DNA of 32,000 nucleotides from Desulfuromonadales bacterium (GCA_037129255.1 JBAXVG010000033.1:158-32157), one strand, 5' to 3'; positions 1 to 24,118 are shown, numbered from the stretch's first letter. Numbers and translations are program-made. Notes: generated from the letters alone by a model not told the origin.

Positions 1-1
1 G

Positions 2-481
2 ATAGGGGATACTAAGGGAAAGAACTACATCTTTCCTTCTGCAGTTACCAAGACCGATGAAAATGATACAATTATTCCGTCACATATCACTGAACGGGCG
101 GTTGCTTATGCCTTACGTCGGAATCTATCAAGTCATAAGGTAAAGCATAAGGGCAAAGTAAAGGTTAAAGCGGTCCCCAAATCAAAACGAAAAAAGCCAT
201 TCGTCGTCGCCGAGGAGAAGAAACTGGATATTGAAAAATTCACACCACATGATCTTCGGCGTACTTGTGCAACCATGCTTTCTGAAATAGGGTTCTTGGA
301 CGAAATCGTAGATGCAGTTCTTGCACATCTCAAAAAAGGTGAAATTCGCACCTATAACAAAAACAAATATGATAAGGAAAAGCAGCTGGCTCTTGAAACA
401 TGGGAACTCAAGTTGAAGAGCATTATCAACGGCACAGAAAGCAATGCTATTCCAATGCCATCCGATAATAAATCTGAATGA
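2..481 (+). CDS. tyrosine recombinase / phage-type integrase, C-terminal part (5' end off-window)
   Basis: Frame 2 is open from nt 2 to the TGA at 479-481. The translation ...EKFTPHDLRRTCATMLSEIGFLDEIVDAVLAHLKKGEIRTYNKNKYDKEKQLALETW matches the C-terminal catalytic boxes of P4-type tyrosine integrases (HDLRRT, LAH, and Y in TYNKNKY). Confidence 0.85.
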   Translation: MGDTKGKNYIFPSAVTKTDENDTIIPSHITERAVAYALRRNLSSHKVKHKGKVKVKAVPKSKRKKPFVVAEEKKLDIEKFTPHDLRRTCATMLSEIGFLDEIVDAVLAHLKKGEIRTYNKNKYDKEKQLALETWELKLKSIINGTESNAIPMPSDNKSE

Positions 482-522
482 TTCCAGTTGCACTATTTTA
501 GCTTATAGGCTACGCTATAACC

Positions 523-861
523 ATGCAGGTATTTCCTCTCGAGATTGAATATTACATTTCCGCAAATGGAGATAGGCCCTTTAAGGAGTGGCTTGAAGGT
601 TTGCGAGATATAAATGGGCGTGCAAAGATACGTGTCCGACTTGACCGAGCGCGTCTTGGCAATTTGGGAGACCATAAGCATCTTGAACAAGGGGTGTGGG
701 AGCTGCGAATTGATTATGGACCGGGATACCGGGTTTATTTCGGAAAAGATGGTAACCGGATTATTCTGTTGCTGGTAGGCGGCGACAAAAGCACTCAGCG
801 GCGTGATATTGAAACAGCCGCTGCATATCTTCACGACCATGAAGAAAGGCAAAAACCATGA
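523..861 (+). CDS. RelE/ParE-superfamily toxin (HigB-like 'addiction module killer' family)
   Basis: 112-aa ORF with motifs PFKEWLEGL, RLGNLGDHK, GVWELRIDYGPGYRVYF and LLLVGGDKSTQRRDIETA, typical of this toxin family. Its stop overlaps the next ATG (ATGA at 858-861). Confidence 0.85.
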   Translation: MQVFPLEIEYYISANGDRPFKEWLEGLRDINGRAKIRVRLDRARLGNLGDHKHLEQGVWELRIDYGPGYRVYFGKDGNRIILLLVGGDKSTQRRDIETAAAYLHDHEERQKP

Positions 862-1169
862 AACAACAAACTGAATACCAGAGAGACCTGATTGAGGCAT
901 TAAAAGACCCTGCAGAGGCTGCCGCTTATCTGAACGCAGCGCTCGAAGATGGGGATAAAGAGACTTTTCTGCTTGCACTGAGAAATATTGCGGAAGCCAA
1001 CGGCGGAATGAAAGCAGTTGCAGATAAAGCTCACTTAAACAGGGAGAGCTTGTATCGCACTTTATCAAGCCGCGGCAATCCTGAAATTCGGACTGTGCTA
1101 AATCTATTGCATGGCATGGGACTGCGTCTGACAGTAGAACCAGAGTTGCAAACGCACGGTGCTGCATAA
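858..1169 (+). CDS. HigA-family antitoxin (HTH 'addiction module antidote' protein)
   Basis: 103-aa ORF with DPAEAAAYLNAALEDGD, ALRNIAEANG, LNRESLYRTLSSRGNPEIRTVLNLLHGMGLRL, the signature of the antidote partner of the preceding toxin. 4-nt overlap with the toxin gene. Confidence 0.85.
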   Translation: MKQQTEYQRDLIEALKDPAEAAAYLNAALEDGDKETFLLALRNIAEANGGMKAVADKAHLNRESLYRTLSSRGNPEIRTVLNLLHGMGLRLTVEPELQTHGAA

Positions 1170-1219
1170 TGAATTTTTCAAAAAAAAGTCGGGATGCATA
1201 AGTTGTTGAAAGCTCAAAA

Positions 1220-1786
1220 TTATCGGTAAGTAAATGGAAATTTAGTCTTGAGTTTAGCAAGACATTCTGCTGACAACACTTTATTTTCCAAGGCAGTCCT
1301 TCCTAACTCTTCCATCGAACGTATTGTCTCACCTTGCTGATCGAGGCACATTTCAACTGATTGTTGCCAATAATCTTTTTTTCTATTTTCGTCGTATTCA
1401 ATCCGTCCCATATTGAACAGCCATAGCTGCCATGGATGACGGTTTGTAAGACATGGATTATTTAGCGCCCATGCACGATACTCTGGTGATTGCGTGTTAG
1501 TATCAGCAAGATATCTGACCAAAAGCGAATGTTTAAATGGGTTTGCGTCATTAGCAAAATCGAAATCGCTCAAATGCGTTATTTCCAAGTATTTGAGGAG
1601 AGATTCCTCAGCGAGCTCAAGCCGGTTGGCATCAAGATATGCGTAGGTTAGATAGCAAAATTGCCTCAGGTAATCGTCACGATAATCTATGACATTTCCA
1701 TTTCCGAAGGCCTCTTGTGCTTTAAAAGAAAAGCCCACTGTATTATCAATATATTCAGGCCCGCAAAATGCGTAGTGCTGCATCAT
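1220..1786 (-). CDS. hypothetical alpha-helical protein, third gene of the Lon-like operon (start uncertain)
   Basis: The ORF is open to a TTG at 1885 and an ATG at 1882, which would overlap the upstream gene by about 60 nt. The first 33 residues of that extension look non-protein-like, so I place the start at the ATG-ATG at 1786 (MMQHYAFCGPEY...). No family recognised. The helical, TPR-like composition (YAYLDANRLELAEESLLKYLEI) and AT-rich sequence match its two neighbours. Confidence 0.5.
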   Translation of the reverse strand: MMQHYAFCGPEYIDNTVGFSFKAQEAFGNGNVIDYRDDYLRQFCYLTYAYLDANRLELAEESLLKYLEITHLSDFDFANDANPFKHSLLVRYLADTNTQSPEYRAWALNNPCLTNRHPWQLWLFNMGRIEYDENRKKDYWQQSVEMCLDQQGETIRSMEELGRTALENKVLSAECLAKLKTKFPFTYR

Positions 1787-1823
1787 TGTACCGAAATAAC
1801 AGCCTAAAGCATAATGTACGCAA

Positions 1824-3281
1824 TCACCCCAAACGCTCCTTGCTCTTTGCAAAAACCTGTTCGAGCCAAGGAATGATATCATCAAACTCTTTTTGAAATT
1901 CGTCCGGAATTACGGGAGAAAATGAGTACGAATTGTGCATTTTGCCAACAAATAAATTGACCATGAATTCTAATTTTTTATCATCAGCATTATGTGTACG
2001 AATCTGCTTATAAGCCTGCGAAGTGAACATTTCCAACTGCTGCAGACTTTCAATATCACCAGAATGGTTGGCTAGTTTCATCTGCAGTAGCGACAGACGA
2101 AATGCAAGTTCAGCCCTGTATAGTAAAATTGCTTCCAATAAAAGTGGCTCAAAAAAAGACAAACAGATTTGGCATTTTTTGTAATCCCAGTCTGGTCGAT
2201 TTAAAATAGATTCCATTTTTTGAGTAAAAATACCTAACGCTTCTAAAGCGGTCTTTTCTCCAATACTAAATAGCGGCGCTAATAGCTCGACGATTCGTCT
2301 GTACTCATCTTCAATTATGGGTAACAAGACTGTGCTCTGGTCTGGTAAAGCCTCAAGTAAATGCGAAGGATCATCAAGAAGTCGATCGAAATGAGCGATC
2401 TCATGGGCGCAACCGGTGCTATACCGGGACCAGATGATCTCTGCATCACGAAGTGTTCGAACAGGTATTTTCTTTATACCACATGAATCATTCGTATCTA
2501 ATGGGTCAGACGAGGTAAGTGCAGGATACATGAAAGCAGAAAACTGTTTTTCCTTCGCTACGCGCAGTTTGTCCGCCAAACAACCCACTTCTATAAGCGA
2601 TGCATCCACAGTTACATCACCTGTTGGCAAAATATCTGGAGGCTGCATACCCGTCACAAGTGAAAAAGCACCGAGGTAAGCTGACAGACCGACGGAAGGG
2701 CCATTAATCGTGCATGATGTATTTGAGCGATCAAGAATCGGACAATAAAATAACTGGTTGCAGTGAAAATGTTTCCTCACAAGATCTGCCACTTTCGTGA
2801 TGGATGCTCTGGCAGCATCATCTAAAAAAGTGTCTGTCCATTTGGGTAGTATCTTGCAATTCACTTTACTCGGAGAGAGTCCTATCAGTAGATTACGAAC
2901 AGTCGGAATACCATATTTATTATCCCCAGCAAGCGCGACTGGAATGGCGACCCATTTCCAGTACTGTAGTTGATTAAGAGTGAAATTATCGTCGAAAAGT
3001 TCACCCAAATCTATACGCGTAGCCAACCAATCTTGGAGCAGGTTCGGAGCTTTATCGGGTGCCAAAAGGAAACTAGCAACAAGTGATTGATAATAAAAAG
3101 GTCTTATCGTCATAGGAAGCACATTTTCCAATAGGCAAGTCTCATCTATAAAACGGCTATCATGACACGACCAGATTCCGGAATGTGGATATGGGAACCA
3201 CTGAGATAGGGCTTTACGCACAAAATGAGCGGAGTTAATTTGCGCGCAGATATTTTCGATGGTCCAACTAGGATCGAACAT
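1824..3281 (-). CDS. Lon-like (S16 family) Ser-Lys peptidase domain protein with unknown N-terminal region and helical C-terminal region
   Basis: 485 aa. Residues ~175-250 (FYCPILDRSNTSCTINGPSVGLSAYLGAFSLVTGMQPPDILPTGDVTVDASLIEVGCLADKLRVAKEKQFSAFMYP) align to the Lon proteolytic core (DGPSAG...ALxSxxTG...xTGEIxxxGxVxxIGGxxEKxxAA). The putative nucleophile is Ser196 (codon 2694-2696) and the putative general base is Lys238 (codon 2568-2570). They are 42 residues apart, against 43 in E. coli Lon (S679/K722). No AAA+ Walker motifs seen. The ATG at 3279-3281 overlaps the upstream ORF by 14 nt. Confidence 0.65.
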   Translation of the reverse strand: MFDPSWTIENICAQINSAHFVRKALSQWFPYPHSGIWSCHDSRFIDETCLLENVLPMTIRPFYYQSLVASFLLAPDKAPNLLQDWLATRIDLGELFDDNFTLNQLQYWKWVAIPVALAGDNKYGIPTVRNLLIGLSPSKVNCKILPKWTDTFLDDAARASITKVADLVRKHFHCNQLFYCPILDRSNTSCTINGPSVGLSAYLGAFSLVTGMQPPDILPTGDVTVDASLIEVGCLADKLRVAKEKQFSAFMYPALTSSDPLDTNDSCGIKKIPVRTLRDAEIIWSRYSTGCAHEIAHFDRLLDDPSHLLEALPDQSTVLLPIIEDEYRRIVELLAPLFSIGEKTALEALGIFTQKMESILNRPDWDYKKCQICLSFFEPLLLEAILLYRAELAFRLSLLQMKLANHSGDIESLQQLEMFTSQAYKQIRTHNADDKKLEFMVNLFVGKMHNSYSFSPVIPDEFQKEFDDIIPWLEQVFAKSKERLG

Positions 3282-4227
3282 GGCTTAAAATAAGAATGTG
3301 AAGGTTATCAAGGTTGCTTCCCTCTTTCGTAGCCCCACTAAAAAACAAGTCAAAATTAACATCGTTAGAAGTAAGGGTTACAAGGCCTGCATCCTTGCAA
3401 ACCCCCGATTCATTAATAAGACATCCCATAAGTTGCGTAGTAACATTGAGAGACTTGGTCAGCTTTCCTGAGACCAGGTACCCATCGCCCTGCCATTCCG
3501 AGAAATTGATTTCAATCAGCACGGGCTCAACAGATATTTCATCAGCATTTTTCCGGACATGATTAACCTGTTTGTATTTAAGCTTACTGGAAGCTGTCAG
3601 AGGTGATAATTCAGGTGGTGCAATAGCTGATGTCAAAAACTGAAAAACATCATCAGTAACTTGTGGAAGGTTCCAATCTTTCAATGCATCCTTTATAGCA
3701 TCATAAGAAAAATGCCGTTTACAGTAATTCTTTATTGATTCTGTTATAGGTAACTTCTCCAACTCGCGTGCCGACTTCACAGCCAACTGCACAGTTAGGT
3801 AAGTTCCTACTTCGACCTCCATTTCGCGAAAGAATGAAATGAGTGATCCTTCAGGCTCTGGATTGTGTGAGATAGTTGACGCGAGAATTGTCTGATTCAA
3901 AATTTCTGACTTTACTATGCCCAAACACTTATCAAAACAATCATCCTTTAGCGAATAGCAGTTCCAAGATTCGGCAAAACCGTAACGATCATCTAATGCG
4001 ACATCTCCGCTACCCATCAACTGTTTATCACTGTAGAGTTGTGCCACCTGCCAATCAGAAGTACCTTCAGTTATCTTCTGTGTGTTTAGAGGATGGATGC
4101 TGCCATGGGGTGTACGCGGTGTGTACCTCCTATCAGCAGTGAGGTGGTAAAACGCCGCACCATGATGATTTCCGCATATCGTTTCATACAAGCGCACCAC
4201 AAAACGGCAACAAAACGGCAACAACAT
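3268..4227 (-). CDS. hypothetical protein, first gene of the Lon-like operon (start uncertain)
   Basis: 319-aa ORF with no recognisable motifs. The C-terminal third is beta-rich (ISVEPVLIEINFSEWQGDGYLVSGKLTKSLNVTT...). The ATG at 4227 sits only 4 nt after the T-run of the tRNA-Pro terminator, so the true start may be internal, for example Met71 at 4017. Confidence 0.45.
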   Translation of the reverse strand: MLLPFCCRFVVRLYETICGNHHGAAFYHLTADRRYTPRTPHGSIHPLNTQKITEGTSDWQVAQLYSDKQLMGSGDVALDDRYGFAESWNCYSLKDDCFDKCLGIVKSEILNQTILASTISHNPEPEGSLISFFREMEVEVGTYLTVQLAVKSARELEKLPITESIKNYCKRHFSYDAIKDALKDWNLPQVTDDVFQFLTSAIAPPELSPLTASSKLKYKQVNHVRKNADEISVEPVLIEINFSEWQGDGYLVSGKLTKSLNVTTQLMGCLINESGVCKDAGLVTLTSNDVNFDLFFSGATKEGSNLDNLHILILSHVRS

Positions 4228-4230
4228 TTA

Positions 4231-4270
4231 AAAACAACAAAAAAGCACCTACAGAATTAACTGTAAGTGC
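4231..4270 (-). terminator. Rho-independent terminator downstream of tRNA-Pro
   Basis: On the minus strand, GCACTTACAG (4270-4261), a 6-nt loop, CTGTAGGTGC (4254-4245; 10 bp including one G-U pair), then TTTTTTGTTGTTTT (4244-4231). Confidence 0.55.
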
Positions 4271-4280
4271 TTGAATTTAC

Positions 4281-4357
4281 TGGTCGGTGAGACTGGAATC
4301 GAACCAGCGACCCCCTGCTCCCAAGGCAGGTGCGCTACCAGGCTGCGCTACTCACCG
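4281..4357 (-). tRNA. tRNA-Pro (anticodon UGG), CCA encoded
   Basis: The reverse complement reads CGGTGAG-TA-GCGC-AGCCTGGTA-GCGC-A-CCTGC-CTTGGGA-GCAGG-GGGTC-GCTGG-TTCGATT-CCAGT-CTCACCG-A-CCA. This gives a 7-bp acceptor stem, 4-bp D stem, 5-bp anticodon stem with loop CT-TGG-GA, and a T arm with TTCGATT. Confidence 0.93.
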
Positions 4358-4370
4358 ACGTAAAAAATCT

Positions 4371-4400
4371 TAAATAGCACACTTGATAGGAAATAGGCAA
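4371..4400 (-). promoter_or_regulatory. possible sigma70-type promoter of tRNA-Pro
   Basis: Minus strand: TTGCCT (4400-4395), 18 nt, TATTTA (4376-4371), about 13 nt upstream of the mature tRNA 5' end. Sequence pattern only. Confidence 0.3.
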
Positions 4401-4536
4401 GAAATTAATCACAACATCACTATTTCCCATACAACCTTTTCCCACCATTTATGCAACAATCCGTTCTAATCCTTGGCAAAATTCCCTTAACGGATCATCA
4501 CACTTCAGATAGGATACCGATTAAACTCTGCGTAGA

Positions 4537-14576: not shown

Positions 14577-16679
14577 CTAGTAAGAAACCGGGATGGATGT
14601 TGAGATGCTGTTGGCCTTAAAGGTTCCACCTACTCCCATTTCAATACCGTTACTTCTCACAACATAGCCTTGATTGGCACAGTACAAGGTCGGATTCCAA
14701 GGCATGTACGTGCCGCTATGTGACGTGTTAAGCCATGTAGAATTAACGAGATATTTTGTATTTCCATAGATAGCACGGCGCTCTGCTACCGTCATGCAGC
14801 TCATATCATTTAGAATAAAATCTTCGACAAAAGACAGAGCCCATGTGAGGTCCGGAGTTCCATTTTGTCGTAATGTCGCAATGAATTTTTTCGTGTTGCT
14901 GGCCACATCGATAAAAGTGACTGTTATATCTGTTGTAGAGCTTGATGAGGCTACGGTCGTCATTTCGAATCGATAAGTTTTGCCTACCACCCATGGATAG
15001 GTATTGCTGCACATTACTCCACTTCCTTCATGGCTGAAATCCTGACATATCGATGTGCCGGCATTGACGATTGAAGAAGGAAGGCTGTTGTAATTCCAGA
15101 CTGAAAACTGGATTTGCCGGTCATAATATGATCCACCTCTCTGAATTCCGGTGTATCCATTATCCCAGTTAATGGCAGCATAATAGGTTCCGGTCTGATC
15201 GGTCAAAGGAGTTACATCTCTTGAGATACCGGTGGCTACAGGAAAATACTCTATGTAACTTGTTGCCAGATGATCAGGTCTTGTGGCCCAATTTTTCAAA
15301 GCGCCAGTATAAGATACGTTTGCAGTGCCTTGGCTGTTTGCAACCGTGGCTGTTAGTGTGGGAGGGGAGGATGAACCAGGCACCCAATAGACTGATGCTT
15401 GGCCGTTGGCCCCGGTAACGGTCACAGCAGGTATGGGCCAGCCGCCACTATCTGCCGACCAATTGACCGTTTGGTTATTTACAGGCAATCCGCTCTGATC
15501 GGTTACTTTGACGGTAAATGTCTGAGGGTAGGCGACTCCGGCATAATTTGCGCCAGGATCGGCATTCAGTTTTGTGATGGAAAGTTTGACTGGTGGCGGT
15601 ATAGCTGTTGTCGATGTCGTCGTTGTCACACCTTTGCCATAAACTTTGTCTCTCCATTCCGTTTCACCCTGAATATGCCAGATCGTGTTCGGTTCGGTAT
15701 AGAGCAGAGTAGCTCCCGGCGCAGTCGAAAGCCCATTCATCGGCATCAGGTAGACTTGTCCGGTCTGCTGGTTCCACCAGAGAAGCTCGGCTTTGTTGTC
15801 GCTGTTGTAGTTGCCGACACTCACGATCTCCCAGAAGGTGTTCGGTTCTGTGTACATCATGGCGCCGTTTGTAACCGATGAGCCGTTAGTCTGCATCCCA
15901 TAGACCTGTCCGGTTGTCTTATTGTGCCAGATAATCTCCGCCTTGCCGTCACCATCCAGATCGCCTGTTCCGGCTATCCGCCAGTTCGTGTTGGGTTCGG
16001 TATAGATGATTCCGGCTGTGGAGGCGTTTAATCCGTTTGTCTGGCCGATGGCCACCTGACCGGTAGTGCTGTTCCACCAGAGCAGTTCCGCTTTGCCATT
16101 GCCGTTGAAGTCAGCGGCGGCAACGCTCTTCCAGGCTGTATTCGGTTCAGTGTAGATTACGGCCCCTCCAGTCACTGTTGTTCCGTTCAGCAGCATGGCA
16201 TAGGCCTGGCCGGTCAGCTTGTTCCACCAGATCAGGTCACTCTTGCCGTCTCCGTTTATATCGCCAGTGGCTACAATACGCCAGTTGGTGTTCGATTCTG
16301 TGTAGACGACCATGCCCGACTTTACTATCGTGGCGCTGGACATCAACATGATATAGACCTGGCCGGTGCTGCTGTTCCACCAGACAAGGTCTCTGATACC
16401 ATCACCGTTAAAGTCCCCCTGTCCAACGATTGACCAGGATAAGTTCGGCTCCTGCCAGAATAGAGCGCCACCGGTGATGCTGCTCCCGTTGGCTGTCATG
16501 CCATAGACAGAGCCGTTTGTGCTGTTGTACCATGCAAAGGTGCTGTCAGTCACAGAAGCGCTGACGGTTTTTTGATTCAATTGATTCAAGCTGTTTTGGG
16601 CGGGATCGCCACAGCCCGCCAGGCTAAACAGCGTGGCAACAAGCAACCCCGCCAAGGTATTGTTAGTATGATTTCTCAT
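14577..16679 (-). CDS. lipoprotein with FG-GAP/VCBS-type beta-propeller repeats, Ig-like (Big) domain and C-terminal beta-sandwich domain
   Basis: Signal peptide plus lipobox (LFSLAGC). There are five full and two partial ~47-aa repeats of the form NTNWRIVATGDINGDGKSDLIWWNKLTGQAYAML.NG..VT.GAVIYTEP. An Ig-like segment follows (FTVKVTDQSGLPVNNQTVNWSA...GANGQASVYW). From memory, the last ~230 aa (YYAAINWDNGYTGIQRGGSYYDRQIQFSVWN) resemble DUF3472-type domains. Confidence 0.8.
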   Translation of the reverse strand: MRNHTNNTLAGLLVATLFSLAGCGDPAQNSLNQLNQKTVSASVTDSTFAWYNSTNGSVYGMTANGSSITGGALFWQEPNLSWSIVGQGDFNGDGIRDLVWWNSSTGQVYIMLMSSATIVKSGMVVYTESNTNWRIVATGDINGDGKSDLIWWNKLTGQAYAMLLNGTTVTGGAVIYTEPNTAWKSVAAADFNGNGKAELLWWNSTTGQVAIGQTNGLNASTAGIIYTEPNTNWRIAGTGDLDGDGKAEIIWHNKTTGQVYGMQTNGSSVTNGAMMYTEPNTFWEIVSVGNYNSDNKAELLWWNQQTGQVYLMPMNGLSTAPGATLLYTEPNTIWHIQGETEWRDKVYGKGVTTTTSTTAIPPPVKLSITKLNADPGANYAGVAYPQTFTVKVTDQSGLPVNNQTVNWSADSGGWPIPAVTVTGANGQASVYWVPGSSSPPTLTATVANSQGTANVSYTGALKNWATRPDHLATSYIEYFPVATGISRDVTPLTDQTGTYYAAINWDNGYTGIQRGGSYYDRQIQFSVWNYNSLPSSIVNAGTSICQDFSHEGSGVMCSNTYPWVVGKTYRFEMTTVASSSSTTDITVTFIDVASNTKKFIATLRQNGTPDLTWALSFVEDFILNDMSCMTVAERRAIYGNTKYLVNSTWLNTSHSGTYMPWNPTLYCANQGYVVRSNGIEMGVGGTFKANSISTSIPVSY

Positions 16680-16699
16680 GATTTACTCTCACTATCAGC

Positions 16700-18841
16700 T
16701 CAAGCGAAACGATAAAAAGCAAACGCCAAAAGTTCCATTTCTCTGATTTCGAACAGAATTTTGAAGGGCAGGTGCATAATCATCCGTTTCTCTGCATCCG
16801 GCACAGATGAGAGTATCGTATCAACCTGCGCCTTCATACGCTTGATCTCGTTTGCAAGCGCCCTGGTGCCCCTGAAGGAACTCTGCAGGTAATAGTCCGC
16901 CTTATCCCACACAGTCTTGTTTCCGGCATTGCCGATATTTATGGTGTGCTCAAGCAGGGCGATGTTGCCGATCTTCCAGATCCAGTCATCATAGTTCTCG
17001 TTAGTCGATTTCAGCCAGGTATCCTTCAACTCCTGATAATTCACGGCGCTCTGGGCCAGGATATGCTCTCGCTGTATCATAATTCCATCGTCCTCATCGA
17101 TGTCGTAATCGAAAATCACGCCCAACTCCTGGTCTGTGTAGTCATACACCATACGATCATACTCGTAGAGGACGTATTTGTAGTTTCCATATCCCAGATC
17201 CCTGACCAGGTAATCCTTCTTATACCAAAATGAAAAATTGCGGACATGCTCAATAATTTCATCCACCACATTGCTTCCCCAGACAAAGCTGCCGACCGGA
17301 CGCTTCCCGATAGTCCAGATTGCAAGTTCATTTTCCTCAATCAGATTGAAGATCGTTGCCGGTCTGGAAGCAAACTGTCTGAATTCGTCGATCCGCACCA
17401 GACACATCATGTAGCGGTCTTTCAGGAATCCGAACAGCTCCTTGTACGGCCTGATCAGTTCGATATCTCGTGCAATGCCGGATTCTTGAATCAGAGAGAC
17501 GAGCTTGACGTTTGCCCCTTTGATCCGGTCGATATCTTCAAACAGGTTTATGGAGGCCAATTCTTCCTTTTTGGCAAAGGTCTGTCCCGGCTCCAACAGT
17601 GACTGTTCGATTAACGGAGTATTAGTGAAGATGTCAACCAGAAGAGCTTTACTAAATACCGATAGCCCCAGAACACTGAAGAGCTGTTTGAACGGATACC
17701 AGGTCTTGGAGGCGTACGGGTCTTTGTGGTTATGGGCCATTTCTCCCGGAACTGCTGTTTCGGCAACATACCTCATGAACACGATGATGTTCCGGAGCCT
17801 GTCAGTCAGGATGGGTATGATCAGTTTTATGTTATCTCTTTGCAGCACAAGTGTTTCGCGGAACACTTTGTTGATGGATTCGTAGATCCTGTCCTCGCCG
17901 GATTCATACCAGACATCTACCTTGCGGTCCTTGTCATCATCGCCGGTAATCAGATCGTTCAGGTACTTTCGGTAAAAGTCCTCTTTCAGCAGCATGAAAT
18001 TCAGTATCCGAATCACATCTGCTTCGGCACTCTCCGGTTTTGGATACACCTTAAGCGAACAGAGCAATTCAATTGTTTCAAACAGACCGCCAAAAAGGTT
18101 GTCGATCTCTCCTTCCAGGTCAATGTCCTTTTCGACCTTCTGAGCGTAGAACATCAGTGTGCTCTTGAGTTTTTCGGTGTTGGTCAGGCGCTTGCCACGA
18201 TCAGTCTGCGAAACGAACAGGGTTCCGGCCAGTTTTAGATCATCCTCGACCAGAATCTGAACGACTTGGATGTTACTCTGAACAAATCGCTTCAGATCAT
18301 CACGGCGTGGAAAATTCGCAAGGTGGCGTTGGAAATAGAGGTATGTCGCCTTTATGCGCCGATTGCTTTTGGTCTTTGCCTCAACCTCTTTGCCGTTGAC
18401 GAGATGCAGGAAATATTCGTAATCCACTTTGCCGGGGATCAGCTTGGGGATGGCAGCGTTGAAGAGGTGGGAGTTGATTTCGGCATCCTGGAAAGCAAGC
18501 AGGAAGAGGAAAAAGGTAGTGGTACGCTGCTGTCCATCGATAACAAAGTAGAAATCGTTGCAACCAGCGAGCGGCTTTAGCTGTTCATGGTTCAAAATGT
18601 CCTGATTGACATATTCGCCAAGCTGGTCATAGCCAACCTTGGCCAGATAGATGCTCCCCAGCAGATAGGGCAACTCTCCGGCCTCTGCGATGGCAAAGAC
18701 CATATCGTTCCAGAAGTCCTCGATATGTTTCTCTTCCCACGAATAAGGGCGCTGGTATTTCGGCATCAGGAAATAGCGGCATTCGCCGAACATTTCGGTG
18801 TAGTAGTTGGAGATTGAGACTTTGATTTTGCCGGGGGTCAT
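16700..18841 (-). CDS. GmrSD-like type IV restriction enzyme (N-terminal DUF262 ParB-like NTPase, C-terminal DUF1524 His-Me/HNH-like nuclease)
   Basis: DUF262 motifs are PKYQRPYSWEEKHIEDFWNDM and VIDGQQRTTTFFLFL. The C-terminal nuclease-like motifs are REHILAQS and IGNIALLEHTINIGNAGNK. 713 aa is a typical size for fused DUF262-DUF1524 proteins. Confidence 0.85.
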   Translation of the reverse strand: MTPGKIKVSISNYYTEMFGECRYFLMPKYQRPYSWEEKHIEDFWNDMVFAIAEAGELPYLLGSIYLAKVGYDQLGEYVNQDILNHEQLKPLAGCNDFYFVIDGQQRTTTFFLFLLAFQDAEINSHLFNAAIPKLIPGKVDYEYFLHLVNGKEVEAKTKSNRRIKATYLYFQRHLANFPRRDDLKRFVQSNIQVVQILVEDDLKLAGTLFVSQTDRGKRLTNTEKLKSTLMFYAQKVEKDIDLEGEIDNLFGGLFETIELLCSLKVYPKPESAEADVIRILNFMLLKEDFYRKYLNDLITGDDDKDRKVDVWYESGEDRIYESINKVFRETLVLQRDNIKLIIPILTDRLRNIIVFMRYVAETAVPGEMAHNHKDPYASKTWYPFKQLFSVLGLSVFSKALLVDIFTNTPLIEQSLLEPGQTFAKKEELASINLFEDIDRIKGANVKLVSLIQESGIARDIELIRPYKELFGFLKDRYMMCLVRIDEFRQFASRPATIFNLIEENELAIWTIGKRPVGSFVWGSNVVDEIIEHVRNFSFWYKKDYLVRDLGYGNYKYVLYEYDRMVYDYTDQELGVIFDYDIDEDDGIMIQREHILAQSAVNYQELKDTWLKSTNENYDDWIWKIGNIALLEHTINIGNAGNKTVWDKADYYLQSSFRGTRALANEIKRMKAQVDTILSSVPDAEKRMIMHLPFKILFEIREMELLAFAFYRFA

Positions 18842-18895
18842 AGCTGCTTCTCCAAAATCAGATACGGATTGATGCCATTCTTCCGAAACCGGTTA

Positions 18896-19306
18896 TTACA
18901 AGGATTCCATACCAAGTTTCTTTATAGCAGATTTGAACTTTTCGTCAAAAGTGATGATTATAGAATTTTTGATTGCCTTTCCTGTCGCTGCAATCAGCGT
19001 ATCACCAAAATCCGCAACCTTTGAAGGCCAAAATGAGAGCAGCACAGTAAAGTCGGTTTGCTGGCATAACTCTACCCCAGGCATGGTTATAAAATCGCGG
19101 AGCATTGCGTTAATCGTCTCTTTTGGAGTGCCATATACTTTGTCCATGACAAAAACAAATTCAGTCAATACGAACTGATGGCATACAAGAGTACATTTCA
19201 AACGGTATGCTGACTCAAAAAAAGAAGCGACAATTGCTTGCTGGGCCGGGTCTCTATCCGTGACAAAAGAGATAAGAGCGTTGGTATCAATGATGTACTT
19301 TTTCAC
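18896..19306 (-). CDS. vapC: PIN-domain ribonuclease toxin VapC
   Basis: 136 aa with acidic PIN residues in context (YIIDTNALI, VLTEFVFV, DFGDTLIAAT, IITFDEKF). The GTG start overlaps the upstream antitoxin stop (GTGA). Confidence 0.85.
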   Translation of the reverse strand: MKKYIIDTNALISFVTDRDPAQQAIVASFFESAYRLKCTLVCHQFVLTEFVFVMDKVYGTPKETINAMLRDFITMPGVELCQQTDFTVLLSFWPSKVADFGDTLIAATGKAIKNSIIITFDEKFKSAIKKLGMESL

Positions 19307-19536
19307 CGATACTTCTCCAGGCAGTTCTCTCTAGCCTGCTGAATATCGTCGGCAATATTTCCGGCCCCGGTTTTCACGCTTCCTTGATAACGGAGAAAAT
19401 CGTTATGAACCGGATGAACAACCGCCTTCCCATTTTCAACGATCCACTCCAGCGAGTCATTGATGGAAATACCAATTTGTTCTCTCACTGCTTTAGGAAT
19501 TGTGGTTTGATATTTTACCGTTACTGTTGAGTTCAT
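19303..19536 (-). CDS. vapB: AbrB/MazE/SpoVT-family antitoxin VapB
   Basis: MNSTVTVKYQTTIPKAVREQIGI... is the swapped-hairpin SpoVT/AbrB motif. The ATG at 19536 follows GGAGG (the ORF-track M1 is a TTG). Translationally coupled to vapC. Confidence 0.8.
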   Translation of the reverse strand: MNSTVTVKYQTTIPKAVREQIGISINDSLEWIVENGKAVVHPVHNDFLRYQGSVKTGAGNIADDIQQARENCLEKYR

Positions 19537-19555
19537 GGCATCCTCCAAAGGTAAA

Positions 19556-19599
19556 ATTCCTTACGTTTTGATGTTAACGTAAGGAATACGGTTTGTCAA
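19556..19599 (-). promoter_or_regulatory. vapBC promoter with overlapping 12-bp inverted-repeat operator
   Basis: Minus strand: TTGACA (19599-19594), 17 nt, TAACAT (19576-19571). A perfect inverted repeat ATTCCTTACGTT / AACGTAAGGAAT (19556-19567 and 19576-19587) spans the -10 element, the layout expected for antitoxin autoregulation. Confidence 0.5.
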
Positions 19600-19607
19600 G
19601 TGTGGCA

Positions 19608-19630
19608 GGGCGAACGGCGTTCGCCCCTAC
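19608..19630. repeat. REP element (palindrome GGGCGAACGGCGTTCGCCCC followed by CTAC)
   Basis: CAGGGCGAACGGCGTTCGCCCCTAC lies between the RAYT stop and the vapBC promoter. It belongs to the same family as the eight copies listed below. Confidence 0.8.
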
Positions 19631-19645
19631 GTTGACATCATTTTT

Positions 19646-20323
19646 TTACACAATATTATCCGGGTGCAATTTGTCTTCAATCCATCGTTGCGGGTTATAT
19701 GCAACATATTCGGCAATCCGGTTGTAATCGGCATCATTGCGGATAACGTGTTCATGATAATTGCGTTGCCATACTGGTACACCAGGGGAATTGCGGGTTT
19801 CGTTGATACGTTTGGTTACGGCGGATTTGAAACCCGACAACAACGCGCCGATCGATTTTTGTTGTGGTCCAGACATCTGGACGACCGGCATTTGGGCGAC
19901 CGGCCGGTCGCCCCTACGTTGTTTTTCGTCTATACGGGTATCATCCGTTATCAAAACAATTCCATGAAAATGATTCGGCATTACCACAAATTCCCCCAAT
20001 TCAATCTCAGCACGAATTTCCGCCGAATGAATCCATTCAGCAGCAACAATCCTACCCAAATCATTCACAATCATTTCCCGTAGGGGCGAACGGCGTTCGC
20101 CCATGTTTTCGCGTTCGCCCAAGTTTTCGCGTACGTTTTCGCCCAGATTTTCGCCAGACATTTCAACGATCTCCCCAAACAGACATTCCCTGTTGTAAGC
20201 GCATATCGTCACAAAATACGCCCCTACCTGGGAATAATCATATCCCTTTAGACGGATTGAACGGCGATGATGTATATCCGGATTGAATTTCATATCGATA
20301 CCCAACATGCAATTTCCTGCCAT
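19646..20323 (-). CDS. REP-associated tyrosine transposase (RAYT; IS200/IS605 Y1 HUH family)
   Basis: MKFNPDIHHRRSIRLKGYDYSQVGAYFVTICAYNRECLFG, the HUH motif PNHFHGIVLI, and the catalytic Tyr region VWQRNYHEHVIRNDADYNRIAEYVAYNPQRW. Two in-frame ATGs are present (20323 and 20293); family N-termini favour 20293. The gene is surrounded by, and contains, GTAG-palindrome REPs. Confidence 0.8.
   Translation of the reverse strand: MAGNCMLGIDMKFNPDIHHRRSIRLKGYDYSQVGAYFVTICAYNRECLFGEIVEMSGENLGENVRENLGERENMGERRSPLREMIVNDLGRIVAAEWIHSAEIRAEIELGEFVVMPNHFHGIVLITDDTRIDEKQRRGDRPVAQMPVVQMSGPQQKSIGALLSGFKSAVTKRINETRNSPGVPVWQRNYHEHVIRNDADYNRIAEYVAYNPQRWIEDKLHPDNIV
19894..19917. repeat. REP copy inside the RAYT coding sequence
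   Basis: GGGCGACCGGCCGGTCGCCCCTAC is read in frame on the minus strand as ...RRGDRPVAQ... Confidence 0.75.
20080..20102. repeat. REP copy inside the RAYT coding sequence
   Basis: GTAGGGGCGAACGGCGTTCGCCC is read in frame on the minus strand as ...MGERRSPLR... It is flanked at 20103-20155 by short GTTTTCGC(N)CCC half-site repeats that encode GENLGENVRENLGEREN. Confidence 0.75.
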
Positions 20324-20352
20324 GTTCCGAATTCATTGATATATCGTCACAC

Positions 20353-20464
20353 GTAGGGGCGACCGGTGGTCGCCCTGTTGTTGATGTTCGTCCTGATGCA
20401 TCCGTTCGCCAATGTTTTCACCCTGCGATGATATCCAAACAGGGCGAACGCCGTTCGCCCCTAC
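20353..20464. repeat. REPIN (inverted REP doublet) copy 1
   Basis: GTAGGGGCGACCGGTGGTCGCCCTG, about 65 nt, then CAGGGCGAACGCCGTTCGCCCCTAC. Two REPs sit in inverted orientation with terminal GTAG/CTAC. Confidence 0.8.
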
Positions 20465-20596
20465 GATGATGTTTCGGTGCTTGCCGTATTCTTCAACGAC
20501 AACCCCGCCGTGCGGATGGTGCCGGTCTGAATTTCATATCGATACCCAACATGCAATTTCCTGCCATGTTCCGAATCCATTGATATATCGTCACAC

Positions 20597-20709
20597 GTAG
20601 GGGCGACCGGTGGTCGCCCTGGTGTTGATGTTCGTCCTGATGCATCCGTTCGCCAATGTTTTCACCCTGCGATGATATTCAAAACAGGGCGAACGCCGTT
20701 CGCCCCTAC
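20597..20709. repeat. REPIN copy 2
   Basis: Same architecture as copy 1, one tandem-repeat period downstream. Confidence 0.8.
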
Positions 20710-20841
20710 GATGATGTTTCGGTGCTTGCCTTATTCTTCAACGACAACCCCGCCGTGCGGATGGTGCCGGTATGAATTTCATATCGATACCCAACATGCA
20801 ATTTCCTGCCATGTTCCGAATTCATTGATATATCGTCACAC

Positions 20842-20951
20842 GTAGGGGCGACCGGTGGTCGCCCTGGTGTTGCTGTTCGCCCTGATGCATCCGTTCGCCA
20901 ATGTTTTCACCCTGCGATGACAATCATACAGGGCGAATCATTCGCCCCTAC
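20842..20951. repeat. REPIN copy 3 (distal REP degenerate)
   Basis: GTAGGGGCGACCGGTGGTCGCCCTG ... CAGGGCGAATCATTCGCCCCTAC. The second palindrome is shortened. Confidence 0.75.
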
Positions 20952-21119
20952 AAACCATCCCTAATACCACGGTAATCGTCTAATAAAACGTTTCAAGGCT
21001 TTTCTGGTTCTGTACCTCGCCCTGAATTGAAATTAGTTAGCATTCTCAAAGAAATTGTCATCATATATGCGCTCCTTTTGTATTAAATAGATGAATGCTG
21101 TATCAGATACATATTGAAA

Positions 21120-24071: not shown

Positions 24072-24118
24072 AATTCCCCCTGTATGAAATTATTTTCTCG
24101 CAAAACATCTGCGCACCG

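What the first reader, a model, noticed from the sequence alone, without database searches (positions are those of the whole stretch)
1220..4227. Candidate novel system: stand-alone Lon-type Ser-Lys protease flanked by two unknown proteins, next to HigBA on a tRNA island
Three minus-strand ORFs are packed with overlaps: 14 nt between genes 1 and 2, and an overlap or small gap between genes 2 and 3. The middle protein keeps the Lon S16 catalytic geometry, with GPS196VG and K238 42 residues apart (43 in E. coli Lon). It has no AAA+ module, and instead carries an unknown ~100-aa N-terminal region and a ~180-aa helical tail. ATPase-less Lon-like proteases act as proteolytic switches in known immunity systems, for example CalpL in type III CRISPR signalling and BrxL in BREX. 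I could not place either partner protein (319 aa, partly beta-rich; ~190-220 aa, helical/TPR-like) in any family. The mobile-island context and adjacent TA pair fit a protease-triggered defence or abortive-infection module.
Basis: partly seen in the sequence, partly recalled or inferred. Interest (0 to 1): 0.72.

Follow-up and report, generated by a model that had tools for sequence, protein, structure and literature searches.

The report
Decayed CRISPR-linked Lon protease switch
The three "genes" are the broken remains of a four-gene cassette (small protein, sigma factor, anti-sigma factor, ATPase-less Lon protease) that in related bacteria usually sits beside type III CRISPR-Cas genes. The cassette resembles the known CalpL/CalpT/CalpS protease switch but lacks its nucleotide-sensing SAVED domain.

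Summary
The ORFs, the Ser196/Lys238 Lon dyad, HigBA, tRNA-Pro and the low-GC island are real. The "three-gene system" is not.

- **Genes 2 and 3 are one gene.** A 2-nt loss in a G-run (about 1827-1830) splits it. About 400 homologues are single proteins of about 710 aa.
- **Gene 1 is a truncated anti-sigma-like gene.** It lacks the first ~115 codons, which in homologues carry a zinc-motif domain and the start of a MazF-like domain.

In relatives (all Desulfobacterota) these two genes end a conserved, colinear cassette: A (~155 aa, unknown), B (sigma-70 region 4 protein), C (Cys/His motif, MazF-like fold, Ala-rich linker, beta domain) and D (Lon protease plus ~400-aa helical region). Thirteen of 22 loci lie within 10 kb of type III cas genes or CRISPR arrays, and every Cas10 checked has GGDD. 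Where C carries a different C-terminal domain, TPR-CHAT proteases replace D.

The best reading is a CalpL/CalpT/CalpS-like switch in which the protease cleaves the anti-sigma factor and releases the sigma factor, without a SAVED sensor. I found no description of this family.

The window copy has no A, no B and no cas genes, and sits behind a terminator. It is most likely a dead relic.

The parts
4281..4357 (-). tRNA-Pro (anticodon TGG). It marks the upstream border of the low-GC island.
   Evidence: ARAGORN; Rfam RF00005, 65.9 bits.
4243..4272 (-). Intrinsic terminator-like hairpin plus T-run directly after the tRNA, ending 16 nt before the ATG of gene 1.
   Evidence: 12-bp stem plus T-run; sequence read. 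No sigma-70-like promoter was found on the minus strand in 1000-4500.
4072..4227 (-). 5' part of ORF 'gene 1' (residues 1-52) with no homology to the C family. It is junction sequence created by the truncation.
   Evidence: tblastn of three full-length C proteins starts only at their residues 115-122, at window 4059-4071. Alignments.
3268..4071 (-). Truncated gene C, the CalpT-like anti-sigma protein. It retains the last part of the MazF-like domain (about 3915-4068), the long helix, the Ala/Ser-rich linker 'SPLTASS' (3586-3606) and the C-terminal beta domain (3268-3579). It has lost the Cys/His zinc motif and the first MazF strands.
   Evidence: 40% identity to P0162 residues 116-377. AF2 model of P0162 (pLDDT 88.7) matches MazF toxins (TM on target 0.6-0.72). 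Motif C23/H41/C45/C48 is conserved in homologues. Linker alignment; coordinates.
1824..3281 (-). Gene D, 5' part (485 codons). It holds an N-terminal helical domain, the Lon S16 protease domain (about 2427-2951) with catalytic Ser196 (2694-2696), T220-G221 (2619-2624) and Lys238 (2568-2570), and the first half of the helical region.
1827..1830 (-). Frameshift site: a GGGG run followed by an in-frame TGA (1824-1826). Restoring GG gives '...ERLGGDCVHYALG...', colinear with homologue P0002 '...DRQGGNCVHATLG...', and a single 687-codon ORF.
   Evidence: Sequence. The two tblastn HSPs of P0002 abut at 1827/1828. In-silico repair. An independent Logan assembly has the identical sequence.
1220..1828 (-). 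Gene D, 3' part (the former 'gene 3'). It is the rest of the all-alpha region, with the family motifs HPWQLW and C-terminal FPFxYR.
   Evidence: 53% identity to P0002 residues 477-677. Family alignments. About 400 homologues are single ORFs of about 710 aa.
523..1169 (+). HigB-like (Gp49, 523-861) and HigA-like (HI1420-type antidote, 858-1169) toxin-antitoxin pair on the opposite strand. It is a neighbour, not part of the cassette.
   Evidence: Pfam PF05973 at 2.3e-6 and PF21716 at 1.4e-19. A HigBA pair was not seen next to the cassette in any other locus whose flanks were annotated.
2..481 (+). 3' end of a tyrosine recombinase (phage integrase family) gene that runs off the window start. It suggests that the whole stretch 1-4280 is integrated mobile DNA.
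   Evidence: Pfam PF00589 at 1e-7, matching the C-terminal part of the profile. A 14-nt stretch resembling the tRNA 3' end lies at 480-493 in inverted orientation (I9).

Best explanation
Window 1220-4227 holds the last 1.7 genes of a four-gene cassette found intact in other Desulfobacterota.

The intact cassette has these parts:
- A: about 155 aa, function unknown.
- B: about 350 aa, a sigma-70-family protein with a region 4 helix-turn-helix.
- C: about 380 aa, with an N-terminal Cys-x17-His-x3-Cys-x2-Cys motif, a MazF-like barrel, a long helix, a flexible Ala-rich linker and a C-terminal beta domain.
- D: about 710 aa, with a helical N-domain, a Lon-fold Ser-Lys protease and a ~400-aa alpha-helical region.

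Inferred mechanism of the intact cassette, by analogy with CalpL/CalpT/CalpS:
1. C holds sigma factor B inactive and docks on D through its C-terminal domain.
2. A signal activates D. In most loci this is probably activation of an adjacent type III CRISPR complex whose Cas10 has an intact GGDD cyclase motif. The signal is sensed either by D's helical region or through direct contact.
3. D's Lon domain cuts C in the Ala-rich linker.
4. The rest of C is degraded.
5. B is freed to redirect RNA polymerase.

The window copy is a relic. It lacks A, B and the sigma-binding N-terminus of C. D is split by a 2-nt deletion in a G-run. The remnant lies directly behind the tRNA-Pro terminator on a degraded integrative island, and there are no cas genes within 32 kb. 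It most likely does nothing.

Shown here: gene structure, homology, folds, conserved catalytic residues, gene order and CRISPR adjacency. Inferred: the cleavage of C, the sigma release and the nature of the signal.
For: One gene, not two:
- P0002 (677 aa) spans gene 2 plus gene 3.
- An exhaustive HMMER search finds 397 family representatives, 219 at E<=1e-30. Nearly all are about 700-720 aa and match the profile end to end.
- The two tblastn HSPs abut at 1827/1828.
- Adding GG restores a 687-aa ORF that aligns 1-687 to P0002 1-677 at 45% identity.

Truncated C:
- Homologues are 373-402 aa, and similarity starts at their residue ~115.

Cassette:
- HMM mapping shows A-B-C-D colinear in L002, L003, L006, L008-L012, L014-L016 and L018-L021. 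L026 has the same order. L028 is the same locus as L002. L029 shows B-C-D, with A not called.

Protein assignments:
- B: profile against PDB gives FliA 6.4e-7 and an ECF sigma factor 3e-4 over region 4. Eight of 12 members hit Pfam Sigma70_r4.
- C: the AF2 model matches MazF toxins. The Cys/His motif is conserved. A 'P-(L/M)-A-A-(A/S)'-type linker is present in most Lon-paired C proteins (about 12 of 18).
- CalpT is described as a MazF-like domain plus DUF2080 and is cut at LAA|A by CalpL (preprint 10.1101/2024.05.08.593097).
- D: Lon fold and dyad. Its only PADLOC hits are the CRISPR-Lon, SAVED-Lon and CARF-TM-Lon models, over the dyad stretch only.

CRISPR link:
- Cas10, Cas6, RAMP, Cas1 or CRISPR arrays lie within 10 kb in 13 of 22 loci.
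- GGDD is intact in all 7 Cas10 proteins checked.

Protease swapping:
- C proteins with a different C-terminal domain (P0006-P0012) are followed by two TPR-CHAT proteases instead of D (CHAT 3.6e-52). This is what is expected if C's C-terminus is the protease-specific docking and cleavage module.

Relic status:
- No A or B homology is found anywhere in the window.
- A terminator sits before the ATG, and no minus-strand promoter-like site is found.
- No CRISPR array is present, Rfam finds only the tRNA, and none of the window ORFs checked with Pfam is a cas gene.
Against: - No biochemical evidence exists for any member. Cleavage of C by D, B binding to RNA polymerase and the activating signal are all inferred.
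- D has no recognisable CARF or SAVED sensor, so how a Cas10 product would be sensed is unknown.
- Nine of 22 related loci show no cas genes within the available flanks. These include several close relatives of the window copy (L001, L002/L028, L003, L006), although the closest full-length relative found (P0014, L026) is CRISPR-linked. The family is therefore not strictly CRISPR-dependent.
- Sigma region 2 of B and the anti-sigma fold of C's N-terminus were not demonstrated. Pfam zf-HC2 did not hit.
- C shows no sequence similarity to the solved CalpT fragment.
- D carries only one lesion, and the identical truncated, frameshifted allele is found in assemblies of two further sequencing runs. 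Residual function of the pieces cannot be excluded.
- The promoter scan covers only sigma-70-type consensus sites.
Confidence: 0.75

Rival explanations
1. One reading: an intact, self-contained three-gene defence or abortive-infection system (unknown protein, stand-alone Lon protease, helical protein) on a tRNA island, working together with or alongside HigBA.
For: The ORFs are tightly packed and the Ser-Lys dyad is intact. The island context, with integrase, toxin-antitoxin pair and low GC, is real. The same arrangement occurs in independent assemblies of two other sequencing runs.
Against: About 400 homologues have genes 2 and 3 as one ORF. Gene 1 lacks about 115 N-terminal residues that are conserved in all full-length homologues. 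The trio in this form was found only in the window and in identical sequence from other assemblies. The conserved unit is A-B-C-D. HigBA was not seen beside the cassette elsewhere.
Confidence: 0.05
2. The split is functional. Either a programmed +1 ribosomal frameshift at GGG-UGA (an AAGGAG Shine-Dalgarno-like motif lies 6 nt upstream) makes full-length D, or the two D fragments assemble non-covalently. The protease would stay active on a new substrate or as a toxin.
For: The slippery-looking 'UUU GGG GUG A' with an upstream AAGGAG was read. The frameshift is the only lesion in D. The allele is stable across samples.
Against: Homologues are in frame at this position (P0002 'RQGGNC', P0014 'RRGGPC'). 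Other split D genes (L012, L020) break at different places, so nothing is conserved. The SD-like motif is 6 nt from the shift site, whereas my recollection of the prfB precedent is 3 nt. The cognate sigma factor and the sigma-binding part of C are gone, so the switch has no output.
Confidence: 0.07
3. The A-B-C-D family is an ordinary stress-response sigma/anti-sigma module controlled by regulated proteolysis. It would have no role in immunity, and its adjacency to CRISPR would be a by-product of residing in variable genomic islands.
For: Nine of 22 loci have no cas genes in the flanks seen. Sigma/anti-sigma pairs controlled by proteolysis are common in bacteria (general knowledge).
Against: In 13 of 22 loci, type III genes or arrays are adjacent, often starting within 50-250 nt downstream of D on the same strand (L013, L014, L018, L029). 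The non-CRISPR loci sit among other defence genes: NACHT, a PDC-M16A-type helicase fusion, DarT/NADAR, AbiE and PIN. The two known protease/anti-sigma/sigma triads of this design are both type III CRISPR accessories.
Confidence: 0.08
4. The variable C-terminal region of D is an effector rather than a sensor. The Lon domain would mainly process or activate D itself, or act as a toxic protease, and sigma release would be secondary or absent.
For: The region after the Lon domain is replaced by a PIF1/RecD-like helicase plus HNH in L003 and by a transmembrane-rich region in Pelobacter propionicus L002. That modularity is typical of effector domains.
Against: More than 90% of listed members share the same helical region with strongly conserved motifs and no enzymatic signature. 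The tight, overlapping C-D gene pair and the co-variation of C's C-terminus with the protease type point to C as the substrate.
Confidence: 0.12

Closest known systems
CalpL-CalpT-CalpS (type III CRISPR-associated SAVED-Lon protease, MazF-like anti-sigma factor, ECF-like sigma factor; Rouillon et al. 2023 as cited in PMC11417357; Smalakyte et al. 2024 preprint 10.1101/2024.05.08.593097)
   Same: Both have an ATPase-less Lon-fold Ser-Lys protease with an extra N-terminal domain. Both have an operon partner with a MazF-like fold, an Ala-rich linker and a separate C-terminal domain, plus a sigma-70-family partner. Both are adjacent to type III CRISPR-Cas loci whose Cas10 has GGDD. CalpL is a profile hit of D at 1.2e-4, and the PADLOC CRISPR-Lon and SAVED-Lon models are among D's only three PADLOC hits.
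   Different: D has no SAVED domain. It carries instead a ~400-aa all-alpha region with no detectable relatives. C has an additional N-terminal Cys/His zinc-type motif, and no DUF2080 is detectable. B is about 350 aa, roughly twice my recollection of ECF-sigma size. A fourth conserved gene (A) is present. By sequence, the D protease domain is closer to archaeal-type LonB (1e-14) than to CalpL (1e-4). Part of the family is not next to CRISPR.
Craspase module of type III-E systems (TPR-CHAT protease Csx29, substrate Csx30, CASP-sigma/RpoE, Csx31), as summarised in 10.1101/2024.05.08.593097 and PMC10028731
   Same: Both follow the logic of protease plus cleavable inhibitor plus sigma factor, with four components. 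The protease carries a large helical-repeat region that could dock on the CRISPR effector rather than sense a nucleotide. A sister branch of the same A-B-C core is paired with TPR-CHAT proteases (L004, L005).
   Different: The protease class differs: Lon Ser-Lys here, caspase-like Cys-His there. The associated loci here have Cas10-based type III systems, not Cas7-11. Homology of C to Csx30 or of A to Csx31 was not tested.
LonB-type / Lon S16 proteolytic domain
   Same: They share the fold and the catalytic Ser-Lys dyad with the 'TG(D/E)' strand.
   Different: D has no AAA+ ATPase and no membrane anchor. Its domain context and operon are entirely different.
CARF-2TM-Lon fusions linked to type III CRISPR (Shmakov et al. 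2018 preprint 10.1101/270033; PADLOC model PDLC01159)
   Same: Both are diverged Lon protease domains genetically linked to type III loci. There is a weak PADLOC hit over the dyad (1.3e-3).
   Different: Those proteins have a CARF sensor and transmembrane helices. D has neither.

Membership tests
CalpL (CRISPR-associated SAVED-Lon protease) | Lon S16-fold protease domain with a catalytic Ser-Lys dyad and no AAA+ module | tested here: met
   Window S196/K238. Ser invariant and Lys at least 90% conserved in 43 homologues. Foldseek matches Lon P domains. Profile against PDB 1e-14. No AAA+ hit.
CalpL (CRISPR-associated SAVED-Lon protease) | C-terminal SAVED4 domain that binds cA4 and drives oligomerisation | tested here: not met
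   The AF2 model is all-alpha from residue ~283 to the end. There are no Pfam hits. PADLOC SAVED-Lon models match only residues ~185-252. The profile has no PDB match beyond the Lon domain.
CalpL (CRISPR-associated SAVED-Lon protease) | Encoded with a MazF-like substrate or anti-sigma protein (CalpT) that it cleaves at an Ala-rich site | tested here: inconclusive
   C has a MazF-like fold and a P-L-A-A-A-type linker, and it overlaps D by 8-14 nt. Cleavage itself is not testable here. There is no sequence match to solved CalpT. In the window, C is truncated.
CalpL (CRISPR-associated SAVED-Lon protease) | [quoted passage not shown] | tested here: not met
   The family has sigma-70 region 4 protein B, but the window has no B homologue anywhere.
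CalpL (CRISPR-associated SAVED-Lon protease) | Located in or next to a type III CRISPR-Cas locus | tested here: not met
   This holds for 13 of 22 related loci. In the window itself no cas gene or array was found in 32 kb.
ATP-dependent Lon (LonA/LonB) | AAA+ ATPase module fused to the protease domain | tested here: not met
   No AAA family hit in Pfam or NCBIfam. LonB models match only their C-terminal ~120 positions, far below cut-off.
BrxL (BREX Lon-like protein) | Sequence similarity to the BrxL Lon-related domain, and a BREX gene context | tested here: not met
   Profile against BrxL 8eil E=0.24. No PADLOC BREX hit. No BREX genes were seen in the loci.
Zinc-binding anti-sigma factors (ZAS) | N-terminal H-x3-C-x2-C motif with an upstream fourth ligand, in a helical anti-sigma domain encoded next to its sigma factor | tested here: inconclusive
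   C23...H41-x3-C45-x2-C48 is at least 90% conserved in full-length C proteins, lies in predicted helices, and follows the sigma-like gene B. Pfam zf-HC2 gave no hit, and binding was not tested. The motif is deleted in the window copy.
MazF/PemK toxin fold | SH3-like barrel of MazF endoribonucleases | tested here: met
   The model of P0162 matches more than 45 MazF chains, with TM on target 0.58-0.72 and probability 1.0. Catalytic competence was not assessed. The window retains only the C-terminal part of the domain.
HigBA-type toxin-antitoxin pair (neighbour) | Gp49/HigB-like toxin followed by an HI1420-type HTH antidote, with overlapping genes | tested here: met
   PF05973 at 2.3e-6 and PF21716 at 1.4e-19; 4-nt overlap at 858-861.

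The most novel reading that the evidence does not exclude
The A-B-C-D cassette, of which the window holds a relic, may be an undescribed family of type III CRISPR accessory modules.

- It is a SAVED-less Lon protease whose ~400-aa helical domain would be a new kind of sensor, either for a Cas10 product or for the activated effector complex itself.
- The protease would control a zinc-motif, MazF-fold anti-sigma factor and an unusually large sigma factor.
- The sigma/anti-sigma core is exchangeable between Lon and TPR-CHAT proteases.
- In some lineages the Lon module has left CRISPR and been fused to helicase-HNH or membrane effectors.
Probability: 0.5. Interest if true: 0.75.

Novelty: new variant of a known kind. 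Interest (0 to 1): 0.5.

Why it matters
The window locus itself is a dead end: a pseudogenised fragment. It did, however, lead to a family of about 400 sequence clusters, all annotated 'hypothetical', that extends the protease/anti-sigma/sigma design known from CalpL/T/S and Craspase.

- **A sensor question.** The protease has no CARF or SAVED sensor, yet it sits beside Cas10 proteins with intact cyclase motifs. That gives a concrete, testable handle on how type III CRISPR signals are read by non-canonical sensors.
- **Modular assembly.** The same sigma/anti-sigma core pairs with either a Lon or a CHAT protease. This natural domain swap shows how CRISPR-coupled transcriptional responses are put together.

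The case also shows how frameshifts and truncations in MAG islands can mimic novel multi-gene systems.

Tried and rejected
- **Single-sequence searches.** Pfam, NCBIfam and PADLOC searches of the three window ORFs gave almost nothing.
- **Word-indexed homologue search.** It found only 3 relatives of the protease. The exhaustive profile search was needed to reach 397.
- **Locus scan.** The search for related loci with the 43-sequence alignment failed for lack of a conserved stretch. A 9-sequence alignment worked.
- **Structure prediction of C.** It was redone with database proteins.
- **Protein A.** The programs aligned the same 'THPVF' and 'CPCSS' segments I had matched by eye, so a MazF-like fold for A remains an unsupported lead.
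- **C-terminal domain of C.** It shows no similarity to solved CalpT.
- **Island borders.** A direct-repeat copy of the tRNA 3' end was not found. Only a 14-nt inverted near-match lies at 480-493.
- **Prophage morphogenesis or housekeeping origin.** Rejected. None of the related loci has phage structural genes.
- **Programmed frameshift.** Considered and judged unlikely (see rivals).
- **Literature.** Searches found CalpL, Craspase, SAVED-CHAT and CARF-TM-Lon, but no description of this SAVED-less family. The library is incomplete, so prior description cannot be excluded.

Full report
**1. What is in the window**

Three minus-strand ORFs occupy 3268-4227 (319 aa, 'g1'), 1824-3281 (485 aa, 'g2') and 1220-1885 (221 aa from a TTG, 'g3'). 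Upstream lies tRNA-Pro(TGG) at 4281-4357. A strong terminator-like hairpin follows it at 4272-4243, only 16 nt before the g1 ATG.

Downstream on the other strand are a Gp49/HigB-like gene and an HI1420/HigA-like gene at 523-1169. The 3' end of a tyrosine recombinase gene lies at 2-481. The stretch 494-4280 has 42% GC, against 52% for the housekeeping genes that follow (dxs, ispA, xseB, sucCD).

g2 does contain GPS196VG and K238.

**2. The Lon assignment**

With the single sequence the signal is marginal: Pfam Lon_C E=0.027, LonB TIGR02902 1e-4, PDB 1xhk 0.08.

- A profile of 43 homologues hits Lon protease domains at up to 1.1e-14, CalpL (7qda, 8b0r) at 1.2e-4 and BrxL only at 0.24.
- An AF2 model of homologue P0002 (pLDDT 90.4, pTM 0.85) superposes on Lon proteolytic domains with TM on target about 0.7.
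- The Ser is invariant. The Lys and the preceding T-G are at least 90% conserved.
- There is no AAA+ module.
- The model shows a helical N-domain (about 1-100), the Lon domain (about 103-277) and an uninterrupted all-alpha region to the C-terminus.

**3. g2 and g3 are one gene**

The homologue P0002 (677 aa) covers g2 and then g3 without a break. An exhaustive HMMER search of 1.84 billion representatives finds 397 family members, 219 at E<=1e-30. Almost all are 700-720 aa and match the profile end to end.

In the window, the two tblastn HSPs of P0002 abut at 1827/1828. The sequence there is CGT TTG GGG TGA. Restoring two G gives '...KERLGGDCVHYALG...', which is colinear, residue for residue, with P0002 '...IDRQGGNCVHATLG...'. 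The result is a single 687-codon ORF that aligns 1-687 to P0002 1-677 at 45% identity.

An independent Logan assembly of another run has the identical sequence at this site, so it is not an assembler quirk. Other family members are in frame here. The two other split copies, L012 and L020, break elsewhere. I therefore read the split as a mutation, not a programmed frameshift.

**4. g1 is a truncated gene**

Its homologues are 373-402 aa. Similarity begins at their residue ~115, at window ~4071, and runs to the stop. The first 52 codons of the window ORF match nothing.

Full-length proteins ('C') have the following parts:
- An N-terminal helical segment with C23...H41-x3-C45-x2-C48, conserved at 90% or more. 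This is the spacing of zinc-binding anti-sigma factors.
- A beta domain.
- A long helix.
- A lower-confidence linker.
- A C-terminal beta domain.

Foldseek places the first beta domain with MazF toxins, at TM on target 0.6-0.72 and probability 1.0. The window copy has lost the zinc motif and the first MazF strands.

**5. The real unit is a four-gene cassette**

Contigs encoding C or D homologues were fetched. HMM mapping shows A (~155 aa), B (~350 aa), C (~380 aa) and D colinear. They are often overlapping, and the order holds wherever enough upstream DNA is present: L002 (the same locus as L028), L003, L006, L008-L012, L014-L016 and L018-L021. L026 has the same order, and L029 shows B-C-D with A not called.

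All loci come from Desulfobacterota: Geomonas, Pelobacter propionicus, Geobacteraceae, Desulfobacteraceae, Syntrophobacteraceae and others.

- **B** has a sigma-70 region 4. The profile against PDB gives FliA 6.4e-7 and an ECF sigma factor 3e-4, and 8 of 12 members hit Pfam Sigma70_r4.
- **A** has no detectable relatives.

tblastn finds no trace of A or B anywhere in the 32-kb window.

**6. Link to type III CRISPR-Cas**

Several loci have type III genes downstream of D on the same strand: Cas10/Cmr2 in L010, L014, L015, L016 and L018, Cas6 in L014, and a RAMP protein in L016.

| Locus | CRISPR-Cas evidence |
|---|---|
| L013 | Cas6 |
| L017 | Cas6, RAMP |
| L008 | Cas1 |
| L009 | Cas1, two 9-repeat arrays |
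| L007, L020 | short arrays |
| L026 | Cas1, Cas2, Cas6, CARF, Cas10, RAMP |
| L029 | full Csm (III-A) operon |

That makes 13 of 22 distinct D loci. L026 carries the closest full-length relative of the window's D that I found. All seven Cas10 proteins checked keep the GGDD cyclase motif.

The remaining loci sit among other defence genes:
- a NACHT protein in L001;
- a Lon N-terminus fused to a PDC-M16A-type helicase plus HNH in L003;
- toxin-antitoxin and DarT genes elsewhere.

The window has no array and no cas gene.

**7. Comparison with the known systems**

[quoted passage not shown] CalpT is a MazF-like domain plus DUF2080 and is cut at LAA|A.

The present family shares four features with it:
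- the Lon fold and dyad;
- the MazF-fold partner;
- a sigma partner;
- the CRISPR context.

Most Lon-paired C proteins (about 12 of 18) carry a 'P-(L/M)-A-A-(A/S)'-type motif in the flexible linker before the last domain. The window has 'SPLTASS'.

A sister group of C proteins (P0006-P0012) keeps A, B and the N-terminal two-thirds of C but has a different C-terminal domain and linker. It is followed by two TPR-CHAT proteases instead of D. This echoes the Craspase/Csx30/CASP-sigma triad, and it is what one expects if C's C-terminus is the protease-specific docking and cleavage module.

The differences from CalpL are substantive:
- There is no SAVED domain. It is replaced by a ~400-aa helical region with no relatives.
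- C has an extra zinc-type motif.
- B is much larger.
- There is a fourth gene.
- CRISPR linkage is only partial.

Membership in the CalpL family therefore fails on a defining feature, while 'works like CalpL/T/S' remains the best model.

**8. Mechanism and status**

Shown here are gene structures, folds, conserved residues, synteny and CRISPR adjacency.

Inferred: C sequesters B and docks on D. A signal from the activated type III system, or another cue in the CRISPR-free loci, switches D on. D cuts the linker of C, and B is released to RNA polymerase. How D is activated without CARF or SAVED is open. Its helical region may be a new ligand sensor or a docking surface for the effector complex.

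The window copy has no sigma factor, no sigma-binding part of C, a split protease, no recognisable promoter behind the tRNA terminator and no CRISPR partner. I judge it a relic on a degraded integrative island. The alternatives are listed as rivals.

**9. Verdict**

- The thing in the window is ordinary decay.
- The family it belongs to appears to be an undescribed variant of a known kind. I found no paper on it in the searchable library, which is not proof of absence.

Noticed in passing
window 14577-25798: A second, partly low-GC (38-46%) stretch carries defence-type genes on the minus strand. These are GmrSD type IV restriction (16700-18841), a 983-aa protein with an N-terminal TIR domain (21120-24071) and a TrkA_N plus RyR-domain protein (24119-25798). 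An FG-GAP/DUF3472 protein lies at 14577-16679.
   Followed up: partly
window 2-493: An integrase 3' fragment ends at 481. It is followed at once by a 14-nt stretch (480-493) resembling the 3' end of tRNA-Pro, but in inverted orientation relative to the intact tRNA at 4281-4357. This may be a trace of rearrangement between att sites, or it may be chance.
   Followed up: partly
L004 3182-14095 and L005 1885-11012: The same A-B-C core has a different C-terminal domain on C. It is followed by a 155-aa protein and two TPR-CHAT proteases (902 and 999 aa), then DarT and NADAR. A DnaB-like helicase gene lies upstream on the other strand.
   Followed up: partly
L003 11128-13704: A D variant in which the N-domain and Lon domain are fused to a PIF1/RecD-like helicase. 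The helicase matches the PADLOC candidate system PDC-M16A at 7e-176, and a C-terminal HNH motif follows. A sigma-54 activator/AAA protein lies downstream.
   Followed up: partly
L001 2720-5836: Directly after D lies a 1038-aa protein with a Schlafen/AlbA_2-like N-terminus, a NACHT NTPase and a possible cold-shock-like C-terminus.
   Followed up: no
L008 1-3936 and L009 12828-16910: Cas1 is encoded next to an AEP-TOTE-type primase domain protein and a TPR protein in two unrelated loci. This looks like a recurring variant adaptation module.
   Followed up: no
L026 12956-15858: The type III locus beside the closest full-length relative of the window's D has an unusually short Cas10-palm protein (505 aa, GGDD present, no HD in the first 120 residues) next to a CARF_Card1-like protein. 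Its relation to the 'miniature Cas10' enzymes listed was not examined.
   Followed up: no
L002 5944-8583 (residues 708-865) and L006 10190-11500 (residues 247-424): Two proteins show weak to moderate similarity to the extreme C-terminus of Druantia DruE (PADLOC PDLC00037, 1e-3 and 7e-9). One is the aberrant C-terminal part of Pelobacter propionicus D. The other is the gene that follows D in Geomonas limicola.
   Followed up: no
L012 4159-6266 and L020 6882-8211: Two further D genes are split into two ORFs, at positions different from the window's. Either this family is often pseudogenised or these MAG contigs carry indel errors.
   Followed up: no
window 4072-4227: The 156 nt between the tRNA terminator and the start of C homology form the 5' end of the g1 ORF but match nothing among the cassette proteins. 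Their origin is unexplained.
   Followed up: partly
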